Origin: an uncultured virus (IMG/VR IMGVR_UViG_3300024507_000487)
Lineage: Duplodnaviria > Heunggongvirae > Uroviricota > Caudoviricetes
Reading direction: 5' to 3' (one strand)
Length of the DNA stretch: 20,000 nt
Virus record (IMG/VR): IMGVR_UViG_3300024507_000487
Numbering within the stretch: position 1 is the first letter of the stretch; every line of letters starts with the position of its first letter. Shown here piece after piece: positions 17,222-19,202 of the stretch. Both the position numbers and the translations under genes were made by a program. Below the pieces are notes generated by a model, which saw only the letters and a list, made by a program, of their open reading frames with translations, was not told where the DNA came from and ran no database searches.

Positions 17222-17294
17222 TAGGCGTGATGGGAGTCGAACCCATACTTGAAGGATTTTAAGTCCTTTGACTCTGCCATTGGTCTACACGCCC
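17222..17294 (-). tRNA. tRNA-Leu(UAA) with short variable loop; CCA not encoded
   Basis: GGGCGTG TA GACCAATGGCAGAGTC A AAGGA CTTAAAA TCCTT CAAGT ATGGG TTCGACT CCCAT CACGCCT A; anticodon at 17259-17261. Confidence 0.9.
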
Positions 17295-17530: not shown

Positions 17531-17696
17531 TTTCCCATTCCTTTGACTTCTTTAAATATGGATAACACTCATCTAGAACTCGCCTAATATCTTCTTCTGC
17601 AAGAGGAAGTCCAGCATTTATTCTTTCGCTGTTTGTCATCCTTGATCTATCTACCAGTTCTAAGAAATCTTTTCTTGTCATATTTTTATTCCACAT
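17514..17696 (-). CDS. Hypothetical protein
   Basis: 60-aa ORF overlapping both neighbours. Confidence 0.6.
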   Translation of the reverse strand: MWNKNMTRKDFLELVDRSRMTNSERINAGLPLAEEDIRRVLDECYPYLKKSKEWENDRDG

Positions 17697-17853
17697 GAAC
17701 TATTTCAAATTTAGTTTTTTCATCCCACAACATTTTATTTGCCAAAAGTTTAGCCTCATAATTAACCCAGCTTTCAACATTTAATTCTGGCATATTGTCA
17801 GGAACATCAACTTCGACAAATATTACAATCTTAGCTTGGAATGTTCTGGGCAT
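17686..17853 (-). CDS. Small hypothetical protein (55 aa; not in ORF track)
   Basis: Hand translation MPRTFQAKIVIFVEVDVPDNMPEL...; GGAG upstream. Confidence 0.55.
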   Translation of the reverse strand: MPRTFQAKIVIFVEVDVPDNMPELNVESWVNYEAKLLANKMLWDEKTKFEIVHVE

Positions 17854-17927
17854 TATTATTTATCTCCGTTGATAAAGAATGTTTATTTAATGGGTCTGTT
17901 CGGATTTGAACCGAAAACCTAGCGATT

Positions 17928-18678
17928 CATGTTTGTGGGTATTTCTACCCTCCATGGACTATATCATTATCCCATAAGGATATCGGACGCTAGTGCGGTT
18001 ATTAAGAGGGCTTTACCTCTCCGCTAGTCTCTGCACCTTCCATTGGTGTACCAATGGCTTGGCTCAATGTTGATGGCATAATTCCATATTGCTTAGCCCA
18101 TTTTCTTATCGTATTGTCTGAAACACCATACTTTTTACCAATTTTTACAAAAGACATTTTTTCAATATCTTCTTTTAATTGATTTTTTTCAGGTCTATTA
18201 ACAATACGAGTTCCTAAAGATTGACAATCAATACCACAAAATTTTGATTGTTTATCTTGTAGTGTCCGAAAACAAATTTTGCAAAATTTAGGTTCATTAT
18301 GTGACATTTTCATTGAATTCATCCGATTCTTTCTGGCAGTTTCCAAACCAGAAGCACCTGAGTCTATCCAAGCGTGAAGTTTAGCGTGTTGGCTTCTTTC
18401 GAGAACTAATAGATTTTGATGTCTATTATCATCTCTTTTGCCATTTAAATGATGCACAACTTCTTCATCTTTTAAGTTACGACCAACACATTCTTCAGCA
18501 ACTACGATATGTTCATAAACATATCCTTCCCAATTGCTATTTTTCATAGCTCTTGAGTGTTCTGGCAAAAATATAAGTCTATAACCATTTAAGATTCTTA
18601 CATCGCTTTTCATGTTGTCTCCTTATAGTGTAATACTGTAATTATATTACACCATTTGAACCAAGAAGACAACCTCAG
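17928..18678 (-). mobile_element. Group I self-splicing intron (751 nt), Azoarcus tRNA-Ile-like core with an added P7.1
   Basis: 5' exon ends in U, intron ends in G. P1 CAU^CUGAG/CUCAGGUG; P2 UUCUGG/CCAGAA; P3 CGGAUG/CGUCCG; P4 UCAAUG/CAUUGA; GAGCCAAGC; AAGGUGCAGAGACUA; P7 GACUA/UAGUC; P9 GGGUA-GAAA-UACCC. Confidence 0.93.
18002..18613 (-). CDS. Intron-encoded HNH homing endonuclease with C-terminal Zn finger and HTH
   Basis: YVYEH.VVAE...VHHLNG.RDDNR.QNL....SQHAKLH (HNH); CKIC...CGIDC; SFVKIGKKYGVSDNTIRKW; AAGGAG RBS. Confidence 0.9.
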   Translation of the reverse strand: MKSDVRILNGYRLIFLPEHSRAMKNSNWEGYVYEHIVVAEECVGRNLKDEEVVHHLNGKRDDNRHQNLLVLERSQHAKLHAWIDSGASGLETARKNRMNSMKMSHNEPKFCKICFRTLQDKQSKFCGIDCQSLGTRIVNRPEKNQLKEDIEKMSFVKIGKKYGVSDNTIRKWAKQYGIMPSTLSQAIGTPMEGAETSGEVKPS

Positions 18679-18726
18679 ATGAGTCGCTTGCTCTAACCTA
18701 TTGAGCTACAGACCCTAATTTTATTA

Positions 18727-18939
18727 TTAGTTTTTGTCAGATGATATACATTCTTCATCTAGCTGTTGAAGAAATGCTTTTATGTCATCTAGACAATCGC
18801 CGATGGAATAACCATTATCATCGTCATCTGAAATAGGGGATTCCAAAACATTGTCAAACCTTTTTAATGACTCAATTACATCAGCCACATTAAAAAAAGC
18901 GTTAGAAGCGTTTTCAGCATTGATAGAAACTTTAGCCAT
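18727..18939 (-). CDS. Small acidic hypothetical protein
   Basis: 70 aa; AAGGA RBS. Confidence 0.65.
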   Translation of the reverse strand: MAKVSINAENASNAFFNVADVIESLKRFDNVLESPISDDDDNGYSIGDCLDDIKAFLQQLDEECISSDKN

Positions 18940-18962
18940 GATACTATCCTTTTAAACTTTTA

Positions 18963-19202
18963 TTACTTACATTTTACACAAGCAAAACCGCCACCATGCG
19001 TGATGTTCTCAAGCTTATTGAGGTTTAATGCCCCAATAGCCTTATGTAGTTCGCCAACTACTTGATTTTGTCCACGGCAATGGTCTTCATCATGCTTATA
19101 GTGTTTAATGCTGACAACAAAGTTTTCACCAACTTTACTTACATCAGCCAAAAAATCACCATGAATTGCACCTTGGGCGATTTCATTCAAATTACTTTCC
19201 AT
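18963..19202 (-). CDS. Hypothetical protein
   Basis: 79 aa; AAGGAG RBS. Confidence 0.65.
   Translation of the reverse strand: MESNLNEIAQGAIHGDFLADVSKVGENFVVSIKHYKHDEDHCRGQNQVVGELHKAIGALNLNKLENITHGGGFACVKCK

What the first reader, a model, noticed from the sequence alone, without database searches (positions are those of the whole stretch)
17928..18678. Homing endonuclease ORF reads through the catalytic core of a tRNA group I intron, with its domains in two separate loops
Seen: the intron interrupts tRNA(CAU) right after the anticodon. The 203-aa ORF starts in L1 (18363-18673), which holds the HNH domain. It then continues in frame through the guide sequence (18355-18362), P2 (18331-18353), P3 5' (18320-18325), P4 5' (18311-18316) and P5 5', which translate as DSGASGLETARKNRMNSMKMSHN. 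A second insertion of about 210 nt in L5 (18083-18295) encodes a Zn finger plus HTH. The ORF then crosses P4 3' (18064-18069), P6/P6a and P7 5' (IMPSTLSQAIGTPMEGAETSG) and stops in P7.1. Established: Azoarcus has an ORF-less intron at this tRNA-Ile(CAU) position, and intron endonuclease genes normally sit in one peripheral loop, at most overlapping an edge of the core. Inference: ribozyme sequence here doubles as the linker between nuclease and DNA-binding domains, perhaps from two insertions fused into one frame, which would lock intron and endonuclease together.
Basis: partly seen in the sequence, partly recalled or inferred. Interest (0 to 1): 0.9.

Follow-up and report, generated by a model that had tools for sequence, protein, structure and literature searches.

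The report
Endonuclease gene threaded through tRNA intron ribozyme
A self-splicing-type intron in a giant phage's tRNA gene carries an endonuclease gene whose reading frame runs straight through the ribozyme's core, so the same letters serve as RNA helices and as the protein's flexible linker, and the same layout recurs in many related phage sequences.

Summary
On the minus strand a tRNA(CAU) gene (18715-17891) is split after the anticodon by a 751-nt group I intron (18678-17928; RF00028 53.9 bits, cut-off 50). A 203-aa ORF (18613-18002) puts its HNH domain in a 311-nt L1 insert. It then reads in frame through the guide sequence, P2 and the 5' strands of P3, P4 and P5. Its Zn-ribbon/HTH domain lies in a 213-nt L5 insert, and it continues through P5', P4', P6 and P7 to a stop in P7.1/7.2.

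The layout is a family trait. I aligned 22 non-redundant introns at the same tRNA(CAU) site. 93.6% of base-pair cells are paired (74.5% shuffled, 0 of 500), and 46 of 60 pairs show compensatory changes. All 22 frames stay open through the 5' core. The overlap segments lose codon periodicity and are predicted disordered.

Free-standing two-domain relatives sit in tRNA arrays, phiKZ included. This argues against two unrelated ORFs having fused, but the direction of evolution is unresolved. Splicing itself was not shown. I rate it a new variant of a known kind, and I found no published phage tRNA group I intron.

The parts
18679..18715 (-). tRNA(CAU) 5' exon, ending CTCAT (anticodon CAT 18681-18679)
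   Evidence: Sequence.
17928..18678 (-). Group I intron, 751 nt, ending in omega-G at 17928
   Evidence: RF00028 at 53.9 bits, E 9.7e-13. Covariation in 22 homologues.
17891..17927 (-). tRNA(CAU) 3' exon (AATCGCT... through T arm and acceptor strand)
18674..18681 (-). P1 5' strand: exon CAU plus intron CUGAG; splice site after the U of the U.G pair
   Evidence: Pairs with 18362-18355. C-G, A-U and U.G are present in 22 of 22 sequences. The fourth pair is kept in 21 of 22, with one A-U compensation. The four outer pairs are specific to this window.
18614..18673 (-). Leader hairpin in L1: an 11-bp outer stem (18673-18663 with 18624-18614) buries the Shine-Dalgarno AAGGAG (18624-18619) just before the ATG
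   Evidence: strand folding: -24.7 kcal/mol, z -4.73, 0 of 200 shuffles as stable.
18002..18613 (-). 203-aa endonuclease ORF (stop codon 18004-18002)
   Evidence: the ORF listing. phrog_15471 E 9.7e-34 over aa 10-178. 395 homologues.
18383..18517 (-). HNH_3 nuclease domain coding (aa 33-77), inside the L1 insert (intron nt 6-316, window 18673-18363)
   Evidence: Pfam PF13392 at 38.7 bits against cut-off 24.8. H54, H55, N63, N67 and H76 are invariant in 26 homologues. pLDDT above 90.
18355..18362 (-). Internal guide sequence / P1 3' strand (CUCAGGUG), read as part of D-S-G-A
   Evidence: GUG is invariant in 22 sequences and sits directly before P2, as in the ORF-less relative L002.
18331..18353 (-). 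P2 hairpin with GAAA loop, read as S-G-L-E-T-A-R-K
   Evidence: All 22 homologues fold into a hairpin here, 21 of them with a four-base loop (mostly GAAA), and the stem sequences differ.
18320..18326 (-). P3 5' strand (inside the ORF linker), pairs with 17989-17983
   Evidence: 96.8% of cells paired; 5 of 7 pairs have changes on both sides.
18311..18316 (-). P4 5' strand (inside the ORF linker), pairs with 18069-18064
   Evidence: 97.7% paired; 4 of 6 pairs compensatory. This window carries a double compensation, GG/CC to AU/AU.
18296..18307 (-). P5/P5a 5' strands; partners at 18082-18073
   Evidence: P5 pairs are 97.7% paired and both are compensatory. A closing helix flanks the L5 insert in most of the 22.
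18083..18295 (-). L5 insert (213 nt) encoding the Zn ribbon (C111, C114, C126, C130) and the HTH
   Evidence: Infernal places the insertion in L5. The Cys residues are invariant or nearly so. pLDDT 81-93.
18040..18069 (-). P4 3' strand and the P6 hairpin, read as L-S-Q-A-I-G-T-P-M-E
   Evidence: P6 is 100% paired and 7 of 7 pairs are compensatory.
17995..18030 (-). J6/7, P7 5' strand (18029-18025) and the P7.1/P7.2 hairpin that holds the stop codon
   Evidence: P7 is 100% paired. P7.1/7.2 are 96.6-97.7% paired with compensatory changes.
17929..17989 (-). Core outside the ORF: P3 3' (17989-17983), P8 (17982-17968), P7 3' (17961-17957), P9.0 (17955-17953 with 17931-17929), P9 with GAAA loop (17950-17937)

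Best explanation
This is a group I intron of the bacterial tRNA type. It sits after anticodon nucleotide 36 of a tRNA(CAU) gene in a 206-kb phage genome. It carries a homing-endonuclease gene that is threaded through the ribozyme instead of being looped out of it.

Layout, 5' to 3':
- The HNH nuclease domain is encoded in a 311-nt insert in loop L1.
- The guide sequence, P2 and the 5' strands of P3, P4 and P5 (about 70 nt) are translated as a 23-residue flexible linker.
- The Zn-ribbon/HTH DNA-binding domain is encoded in a 213-nt insert in L5.
- The frame then drifts on through P5', P4', P6, J6/7 and P7 until a conserved UAA in P7.1/7.2. This gives a disordered, dispensable tail.

Shown:
- The RNA helices are under selection for pairing.
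- The two protein domains are under protein-level selection.
- The overlap segments evolve like RNA, with no third-position excess, and only have to stay open and in frame.

Inferred:
- The RNA self-splices to give a 74-nt tRNA. The exon-exon anticodon stem helps to align the exons.
- The protein cuts intron-less tRNA(CAU) genes and drives homing. A nuclease head tethered by a flexible linker to a DNA-binding domain would resemble I-TevI in design.
- A translating ribosome must unwind P1-P5, so translation and splicing exclude each other on one molecule. In this window the Shine-Dalgarno sequence is buried in an 11-bp stem, which would favour folding and splicing first.
For: Intron in this window:
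- RF00028 gives a full-length match at 53.9 bits against cut-off 50, E 9.7e-13, with the L5 insertion.
- The split tRNA is called by ARAGORN with introns allowed.

Family of 22 non-redundant introns at CTCAT|...G|AA (alignment A2):
- 60 pairs, 93.6% of cells paired against 74.5% shuffled (0 of 500); slid controls 34-45%; 46 pairs changed on both sides.
- All 22 P2 segments fold into a hairpin, 21 with a four-base loop, on different stems.
- 22 of 22 ORFs are open through guide sequence to P5 5', and 12 of 22 read on to P7.1/7.2.

Codon-position entropy in bits, positions 1/2/3:
- HNH 0.97/0.61/1.48
- Zn+HTH 1.20/1.01/1.58
- linker 1.06/0.96/1.10
- tail 0.67/0.62/0.55

AlphaFold2 model: ten-residue block means of pLDDT are 91-96 over aa 11-80 and 81-93 over aa 111-180. 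They are 64, 46 and 61 over aa 81-110 and below 50 after aa 181.

Protein:
- HNH_3 above cut-off. Catalytic His/Asn and the Zn cysteines are invariant or nearly invariant.
- 91 of the 120 best protein homologues carry my linker signature and 70 of 120 the tail signature.
- In an Rfam scan of 20 related viral loci, 12 have RF00028 spanning the ORF interior in the same way.

Other:
- The ORF-less relative in Klebsiella phage OU509535.1 has a 5-nt L1 and a short L5 at the homologous places.
- Leader hairpin z -4.73.
Against: - No splicing was observed. Contigs from four RNA libraries show only the unspliced form and no exon-exon joint, and DNA carry-over in them cannot be excluded.
- This window's copy is the weakest Rfam match of the set: 53.9 bits, against 55.8-83.6 for 11 relatives and 42.2 for L013.
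- Its P5 lacks the CCUAAG/UAUGG-type motif that most relatives keep. Calling that motif a tetraloop receptor is from my recall.
- P1 has to close a 311-nt loop. Only 4 of its 8 pairs are conserved in the family.
- Endonuclease activity, its target and the Met versus Ile2 identity of the tRNA are untested.
- Alignment A2 was made by MAFFT, and I chose the structure from this window's sequence. That favours the unshifted register in the slid control.
Confidence: 0.85

Rival explanations
1. Dead intron. The ribozyme in this particular window no longer splices, the tRNA is a pseudogene, and the ORF is in effect a free-standing endonuclease sitting in intron debris.
For: - Second-lowest Rfam score of the 13 threaded copies scored.
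- P5 motif altered.
- A clearly decayed example exists elsewhere. L118 keeps the ORF, but its exons and 3' core are deleted and its linker has diverged.
- No spliced joint in RNA-library contigs.
Against: - Every helix P1-P9.0 is intact in the window with standard pairs.
- P4 and P5 differ from the consensus by compensated changes, which implies continued selection.
- J6/7, P7, J8/7, the U.G pair and omega-G match the family consensus.
- Three other viral contigs carry an identical ORF.
Confidence: 0.08
2. The continuity of the frame is incidental. The HNH part and the Zn/HTH part are made as two proteins, or only one is made, and the core is not really translated.
For: - The linker and tail carry no protein-level conservation signal.
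- They are modelled as disordered.
Against: - 22 of 22 homologues keep the frame open with no stop across variable P2 sequences.
- 395 database proteins of the same length span both domains.
- Free-standing relatives are single two-domain proteins.
- I saw no conserved internal start in alignment A2, though I did not search for one systematically.
Confidence: 0.04
3. Rival about origin. Two independent ORF insertions, a nuclease in L1 and a DNA binder in L5, later fused by read-through of the core. Free-standing two-domain genes are then escapees from such introns.
For: - The tree of 48 proteins intermixes threaded and free forms, with the free forms on long branches.
- L118 shows a threaded gene surviving the death of its intron.
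- L119 and L124 are free-standing but keep a GAPG(L/I)(A/E)RFG peptide like the P2-encoded peptide of threaded members.
Against: - The HNH + Zn-ribbon + HTH architecture with unrelated linkers is widespread outside introns, in tRNA arrays of phages and bacteria.
- I found no intron carrying only the L1 half or only the L5 half. The loci examined are the 22 threaded ones, the three ORF-less ones (L002, L027, L128) and the 40 loci scanned with Rfam.
- In L027 and L128 a free-standing relative lies just downstream of an ORF-less intron-bearing tRNA. The tRNA was called as tRNA(CAU) only in L027; in L128 I saw only the RF00028 match at 27-294. This is the arrangement proposed as a precursor to intron invasion (Bonocora and Shub 2009, recalled, not read here).
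Confidence: 0.25

Closest known systems
Azoarcus-type group I intron in tRNA-Ile(CAU), class 'Ile2.5Ug', subgroup IC3
   Same: - Same insertion point, after the third anticodon base of a CAU tRNA, with U-1 and omega-G.
- Guide sequence GUG pairs with CAU.
- GAAA-type loops on P2 and P9.
- Family consensus core GAAUUCAGGGAAACCUAAG...GGCAAUCCUGAGCCAAGCC, which I recall as close to the Azoarcus core. That comparison is from memory and was not tested.
- Class and subgroup as listed by Williams 2020.
   Different: - Azoarcus is about 205 nt and ORF-less (recalled).
- Here L1 and L5 carry 311-nt and 213-nt coding inserts.
- There is an extra P7.1/7.2-like hairpin between P7 and P3'.
- The host is a phage.
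Synechocystis tRNA-fMet group I intron encoding I-Ssp6803I
   Same: [quoted passage not shown] Only titles were seen here, in reference lists; the details are recalled.
   Different: - The insertion point differs: 'fMet.2Ug', before the anticodon.
- The enzyme is PD-(D/E)XK, not HNH.
- I did not read the primary paper, so I cannot say where its ORF lies relative to the core.
Phage T4 td intron / I-TevI and other introns whose ORF edges overlap the core
   Same: - The review PMC3984707 (passages read) states that ORFs usually sit in loops, that some extend into core sequences, and that expression is then tightly controlled so as not to disturb splicing.
- I-TevI is also a nuclease domain tethered by a flexible linker to a DNA-binding domain (recalled).
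- I-TevI represses its own expression through an operator that resembles its homing site (PMC3943268, passage read).
   Different: - There the overlap is at one edge of a single loop. Here the frame crosses P1' to P5 and then P5' to P7, with one domain in each of two loops.
- GIY-YIG versus HNH.
- Protein-coding host gene versus tRNA.
Mitochondrial group I introns with LAGLIDADG ORFs fused in frame to the upstream exon
   Same: Translation passes through 5' core elements before it reaches the functional domain (recalled; none of the papers listed was opened on this point).
   Different: There the core-encoded part is an N-terminal leader of one loop-encoded enzyme. It is not a linker between two functional domains in different loops.
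Free-standing HNH endonucleases of tRNA gene arrays (phiKZ PHIKZ296; BRkr RVBP21_2480; cyanobacterial tRNA-array HNH gene all8564)
   Same: - phiKZ and BRkr encode the same protein family: 41-46% identity over aa 1-201 (BRkr) or aa 6-178 (phiKZ), with HNH + Zn ribbon + HTH, next to tRNA genes.
- PMC8421152 (passages read) reports an HNH homing-endonuclease gene conserved beside tRNA arrays. I did not test whether all8564 is homologous to this family.
   Different: - No intron.
- Short unrelated linker (for example KRLGIDPKNYPTKLC in phiKZ).
- No core-derived tail.

Membership tests
Group I intron (Rfam RF00028) | Match to the covariance model at or above the gathering score | tested here: met
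   53.9 bits against 50, E 9.7e-13, model 1-253. Missed by the default-filter scan of the whole window.
Group I intron (Rfam RF00028) | U.G wobble at the 5' splice site in P1, and a terminal G (omega-G) | tested here: met
   U.G in 22 of 22 sequences. The last intron base is an invariant G followed by AA.
Group I intron (Rfam RF00028) | Core helices P3-P9, including the P3/P7 pseudoknot, supported by covariation | tested here: met
   P3 96.8%, P4 97.7%, P6 100%, P7 100%, P8 94.5%, P9 93.6% of cells paired; 46 of 60 pairs compensatory; 0 of 500 shuffles as good.
Group I intron (Rfam RF00028) | Guanosine-dependent self-splicing | not testable with these tools
   RNA-library contigs show no joint, which is inconclusive.
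Bacterial tRNA intron class Ile2.5Ug / subgroup IC3 (Azoarcus type) | Insertion after the 5th anticodon-loop nucleotide of a CAU tRNA, with U-1 and omega-G | tested here: met
   CTCAT|intron...G|AA in the window and in the other 21 aligned sequences. Class definition from Williams 2020.
Bacterial tRNA intron class Ile2.5Ug / subgroup IC3 (Azoarcus type) | The host tRNA is tRNA-Ile2 (lysidine) rather than tRNA-Met | tested here: inconclusive
   A 5'-exon search against E. coli genomes gave no match. No isotype model was available.
Bacterial tRNA intron class Ile2.5Ug / subgroup IC3 (Azoarcus type) | IC3 peripheral architecture (compact, without P7.1/P7.2) | tested here: inconclusive
   A 30-nt two-tier hairpin lies between P7 5' and P3 3' in 22 of 22 sequences. 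Such an element is recalled as typical of IA introns. No subgroup models were on hand.
HNH endonuclease (Pfam HNH_3, PF13392; phrog_15471) | Profile match above the cut-off, with conserved His/Asn metal-finger residues | tested here: met
   38.7 bits against 24.8. phrog_15471 E 9.7e-34. H54, H55, N63, N67 and H76 are invariant in 26 sequences. The structural match to I-HmuI is only weak (E 0.2).
Homing endonuclease (functional class) | Cleaves the intron-less allele at or near the insertion site and drives intron homing | not testable with these tools
   Inferred from the intron location and from relatives lying beside tRNA genes.

The most novel reading that the evidence does not exclude
A whole lineage of large-phage tRNA(CAU) group I introns has fused ribozyme and endonuclease into one doubly read sequence. 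The catalytic core's 5' half is the enzyme's inter-domain tether, so ribosome passage and ribozyme folding are alternative fates of each transcript: a built-in switch between tRNA production and homing. On top of this, a T-arm-like box (GGTTCRARU) lies 16-17 nt into the intron. That is the same distance from the CAT as the real T arm in an uninterrupted tRNA gene. It could be a target-site mimic through which the endonuclease's DNA-binding domain senses or represses its own gene, as I-TevI does.
Probability: 0.3. Interest if true: 0.85.

Novelty: new variant of a known kind. Interest (0 to 1): 0.72.

Why it matters
Group I introns with homing endonuclease genes are textbook. The rule is that the ORF is looped out of the ribozyme, and at most an edge overlaps the core (PMC3984707; PMC11878797). 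This family breaks that rule. Here, about 135 nt of conserved core, including the guide sequence and both strands of P4, P5 and P6, is read as protein. This happens in at least 22 divergent introns and probably in about a hundred database proteins.

That gives a natural system for three questions:
- How one sequence can satisfy RNA-structure and coding constraints at once.
- How translation and ribozyme folding compete on one RNA.
- How endonuclease genes enter introns, since free-standing relatives sit beside ORF-less introns.

The 2014 review stated that all phage introns known to date lay in protein-coding genes. My literature searches found no report of a phage tRNA group I intron or of this two-loop threading.

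Practically, default ARAGORN and the default Rfam scan both miss the feature. Such tRNAs therefore go unannotated, and the ORFs are filed as plain 'HNH endonuclease'.

Tried and rejected
- One literature search failed on a too-short term and was re-sent without it.
- Nucleotide search of GenBank phages found only the 5' exon in Pseudomonas phage tRNA-Met genes and 89 nt of 3' core in one Klebsiella phage. There was no full-length relative.
- Protein search of the same collection found 33 records. I opened two (BRkr, phiKZ) and both are free-standing. The other 31 were not opened.
- Four RNA-library runs were laid on 17600-19000. Contigs cover the unspliced intron and there are no joints. One contig (17870-18718) nearly matches the pre-tRNA span, and two contigs end at 18665. 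None of this shows or excludes splicing or transcription.
- A PDB sequence search with the family profile gave 0 matches.
- Foldseek against the PDB gave nothing at E <= 0.001. I-HmuI ranks second at E 0.2.
- The protein tree of 48 rows finished only in its quick form. Its backbone is unsupported, and the threaded/free label needs 7 changes while the starred branches force only 1. No direction can be read from it. Seven distant multi-domain rows were dropped before building.
- Several ARAGORN intron calls in distant loci (L036, L133, L137, L138, L150) lie in loci where Rfam found intact tRNAs and no RF00028, so they look like false joins of neighbouring tRNAs.
- A 5'-exon search against E. coli genomes, meant to tell Ile2 from Met, gave no match.
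- An alternative P1 using GGUG at intron nt 27-30 was considered. It is specific to this window and is buried in the leader hairpin, so I rejected it in favour of the invariant GGUG directly before P2.
- P5a could not be scored by alignment column because the register shifts at the edge of the insert. It was checked sequence by sequence instead.
Full report
WHAT IS THERE

Read on the minus strand, the window holds a tRNA gene with anticodon CAT that is split directly after the anticodon.
- The 5' exon is 18715-18679 and ends CTCAT.
- The intervening sequence is 18678-17928, 751 nt, and ends in G.
- The 3' exon is 17927-17891 and begins AATCGCT.

Default ARAGORN sees only the neighbouring tRNA-Leu. 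With introns allowed it calls one split tRNA with a 751-nt intron.

The default Rfam scan of the 20-kb window reports no intron. A permissive scan of 17850-18760 gives RF00028 over the full model at 53.9 bits (gathering 50), E 9.7e-13, with about 210 nt inserted in the P5 loop.

The window belongs to a 206-kb virus record rated complete, and this is its only RF00028 match.

THE ORF

A 203-aa ORF runs 18613-18002. Pfam finds HNH_3 at aa 33-77 (38.7 bits, cut-off 24.8), a PLATZ-like Zn motif at aa 98-131 and weak HTH matches at aa 138-180. PHROG family 15471 ('HNH endonuclease') matches aa 10-178 at E 9.7e-34.

The intron has only 65 nt before the start codon and 74 nt after the stop codon. That is too little for a group I core, so the core must overlap the ORF.

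THE ANATOMY

- P1 is CAU|CUGAG (18681-18674) paired with CUCAGGUG (18362-18355). It closes a 311-nt L1 that holds the HNH domain.
- Directly after the guide sequence come P2 (18353-18331, GAAA loop), P3 5' (18326-18320), P4 5' (18316-18311) and P5/P5a 5' (18307-18296). All of these lie in frame, as residues 84-106.
- L5 (18295-18083) encodes the Zn ribbon and the HTH.
- The frame then crosses P5a/P5 3', P4 3' (18069-18064), P6 (18057-18040), J6/7, P7 5' (18029-18025) and P7.1/7.2. It stops at 18004-18002.
- P3 3', P8, P7 3', P9.0, P9 and omega-G lie outside the ORF.

An ORF-less relative in the tRNA(CAU) gene of Klebsiella phage OU509535.1 is 228 nt long and scores 89.9 bits. It has a 5-nt L1 and a short L5 at the homologous places, and its guide sequence also lies directly before P2. 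The sizes add up: 228 + 311 + 213 is close to 751.

IT IS A FAMILY

The protein has 395 database homologues at E <= 0.001, nearly all 175-230 aa long. In an alignment of 26 of them the catalytic His/Asn residues and three of the four Zn cysteines are invariant (the fourth is nearly so). Many share a strikingly conserved C-terminal string, LSQAxGTPxEGAETSGEV(K/Q)SS. That string is the translation of P4'-P6-P7.

I fetched DNA for relatives from viral, genome and metagenome collections. In an Rfam scan of 20 viral loci, 12 show RF00028 starting about 225 nt inside the ORF and ending about 80 nt past it. ARAGORN with introns, plus my own exon checks, gave 22 non-redundant introns, all at CTCAT|...G|AA of a tRNA(CAU). 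I aligned them as A2.

COVARIATION

On A2, the structure taken from this window has 60 pairs.
- 93.6% of cells form standard pairs, against a shuffled mean of 74.5% (0 of 500 shuffles reach it).
- Partners slid by 1-3 columns give 34-45%.
- 46 pairs show changes on both sides.

Helices that tie in-ORF strands to their partners are well supported:

| Helix | Cells paired | Compensatory pairs |
|---|---|---|
| P3 | 96.8% | 5 of 7 |
| P4 | 97.7% | 4 of 6 |
| P5 | 97.7% | 2 of 2 |
| P6 | 100% | 7 of 7 |

P1's first three pairs (C-G, A-U, U.G) are invariant. The fourth is kept in 21 of 22, with one A-U compensation.

P2 is misregistered by column (67% paired). Folded one sequence at a time, all 22 segments form a hairpin, 21 of them with a four-base loop (mostly GAAA), on different stem sequences.

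Two caveats apply. The structure was derived from one of the aligned sequences, and the sequences are related to each other. Both inflate the controls somewhat, though not by this margin.

DUAL READING

All 22 ORFs stay open through guide sequence to P5 5'. 12 of 22 continue to the P7.1/7.2 stop, and 10 stop at or before P4 3'. The tail is therefore optional.

Variability by codon position shows the usual third-position excess in the two domains. It is flat in the linker, and flat and low in the tail.

| Segment | Entropy in bits, positions 1/2/3 |
|---|---|
| HNH | 0.97 / 0.61 / 1.48 |
| Zn+HTH | 1.20 / 1.01 / 1.58 |
| Linker | 1.06 / 0.96 / 1.10 |
| Tail | 0.67 / 0.62 / 0.55 |

The AlphaFold2 model gives ten-residue block means of pLDDT of 91-96 over aa 11-80 and 81-93 over aa 111-180. 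The means are 64, 46 and 61 over aa 81-110 and below 50 after aa 181.

So the core is selected as RNA. The protein only needs it to be open, in frame and flexible.

HOW IT PROBABLY WORKS (INFERRED)

- The precursor folds and splices with guanosine. The exon-exon anticodon stem helps to align the exons. A paper with that conclusion for the Anabaena pre-tRNA is cited in PMC3984707; I saw only its title.
- The protein is a modular homing endonuclease. By design it would bind DNA through the Zn/HTH domain and reach its cleavage site through the tether.
- A ribosome translating 18362-18025 must melt P1-P7, so one RNA molecule can be spliced or translated but not both at once.
- In this window the Shine-Dalgarno sequence lies inside an 11-bp stem (-24.7 kcal/mol, z -4.73). 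This would delay translation.
- Other family members have leaders as short as 2 nt (the L023 and L125 rows), so this control is not universal.
- The review PMC3984707 notes that where ORFs reach into the core, their expression is tightly controlled.

RELATIVES OUTSIDE INTRONS, AND ORIGIN

More distant relatives (30-46% identity) are free-standing genes between intact tRNAs, with unrelated linkers. They include phiKZ PHIKZ296 and BRkr RVBP21_2480.

In L027 and L128 such a gene lies just downstream of an ORF-less intron. The host tRNA was called as tRNA(CAU) in L027 only.

L118 is a decayed threaded intron that still keeps its ORF. L119 and L124 are free-standing but retain a peptide resembling the P2-encoded one.

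The tree is unresolved. A contiguous two-domain protein is therefore not peculiar to introns, which weakens the idea of two unrelated insertions. Whether threading came from a free-standing gene or the reverse remains open.

WHAT IS NOT SHOWN

Splicing, endonuclease activity, the target site and the tRNA's identity are all untested. RNA-library contigs hold only the unspliced form.

LITERATURE

- The Hausner/Hafez/Edgell 2014 review (PMC3984707; passages read) says three things. ORFs are usually entirely within loops. Some extend into the core. All phage introns known to date lay in protein-coding genes despite the many phage tRNA genes.
- PMC11878797 (passages read) repeats the loop rule.
- Williams 2020 (main text and passages read) catalogues bacterial tRNA introns, including the class at this position. 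Word searches of its text found no mention of 'ORF', 'open reading' or 'endonuclease'.
- Six searches found no description of a two-loop threaded ORF or of a phage tRNA group I intron. Subscription-only papers are outside the library, among them Bonocora and Shub 2001 on I-Ssp6803I.

VERDICT

The feature is real and well supported. It is a new variant of a known kind. The architecture is unusual enough to interest specialists, and it opens a testable question about competition between translation and ribozyme folding.

Noticed in passing
window 18662-18654 (minus strand; intron nt 17-25); also L007, L010, L014, L015, L019, L025, L033, L114, L115, L116, L122, L129: A T-arm-like box GGTTCRARU starts at intron nt 16-17 in 13 of 22 introns. 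My script printed 12, and I read a thirteenth (L019) by eye from its leader sequence. The real T-arm GGTTC starts at 3'-exon nt 16 in 22 of 22. The intron-bearing allele thus mimics the downstream half of the uninterrupted tRNA gene at the same spacing from CAT. The box matches its own T arm slightly better than other T arms (7.56 against 7.18 of 9; 158 of 5000 permutations reach this). It pairs strongly with the splice-site strand in only 6 of the 16 introns where the script found a box. Possible readings are an operator or target mimic, or a relic of how the gene entered.
   Followed up: partly
L027 863-1776; L128 27-1125; L002 1355-2099: ORF-less group I introns with an HNH endonuclease gene immediately downstream. 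The host was called as tRNA(CAU) in L027 and L002; for L128 I saw only the intron match. In L027 and L128 the downstream gene is a relative of this family. In the Klebsiella phage (L002) the HNH ORF did not surface in my family searches. This looks like an intron plus a free-standing endonuclease working together.
   Followed up: partly
L118 (metagenome contig), ORF 568-1128 and flanks: A decayed threaded intron. The 5' box and CCTGAGCCAA remain, and a tRNA 3' part directly follows. The exon and most of the 3' core are gone, the ORF is intact, and the linker sequence has diverged.
   Followed up: partly
L013 2034-2329: The same viral contig that carries a threaded tRNA(CAU) intron also has an ORF-less group I intron (RF00028 59.4 bits). 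ARAGORN calls the host a tRNA-Leu(UAA) with a 212-nt intron, the classical cyanobacterial/plastid position, here in a 170-kb viral contig.
   Followed up: no
L007 292-651; L010 511-853: tmRNA genes (RF00023, 99.5 and 79.1 bits) lie a few hundred bases upstream of the intron-bearing tRNA in two viral contigs.
   Followed up: no
L026/L029 1183-1323 and onward; L030 1252-1521: Relatives whose reading frame is broken by a stop, after which recognisable HNH sequence continues. These may be pseudogenes or shifted frames.
   Followed up: no
L023 1178-, L125 578- (intron 5' ends): In two introns an in-frame ATG sits at intron nt 3-5. The excised intron would then be a nearly leaderless mRNA, which hints that endonuclease translation could depend on the first splicing step.
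   Followed up: no
window 17222-17294 (minus strand): An intact tRNA-Leu(UAA) (60.1 bits) lies about 600 nt downstream of the split tRNA, with small ORFs between them. The region is a phage tRNA/small-gene cluster.
   Followed up: no
window 17870-18718: In one RNA-library run a single 849-nt contig spans almost exactly the unspliced pre-tRNA (18715-17891). Contigs of two other runs end at 18665, which is 13 nt inside the intron. The data are contigs only, so this is not evidence of transcript ends.
   Followed up: partly
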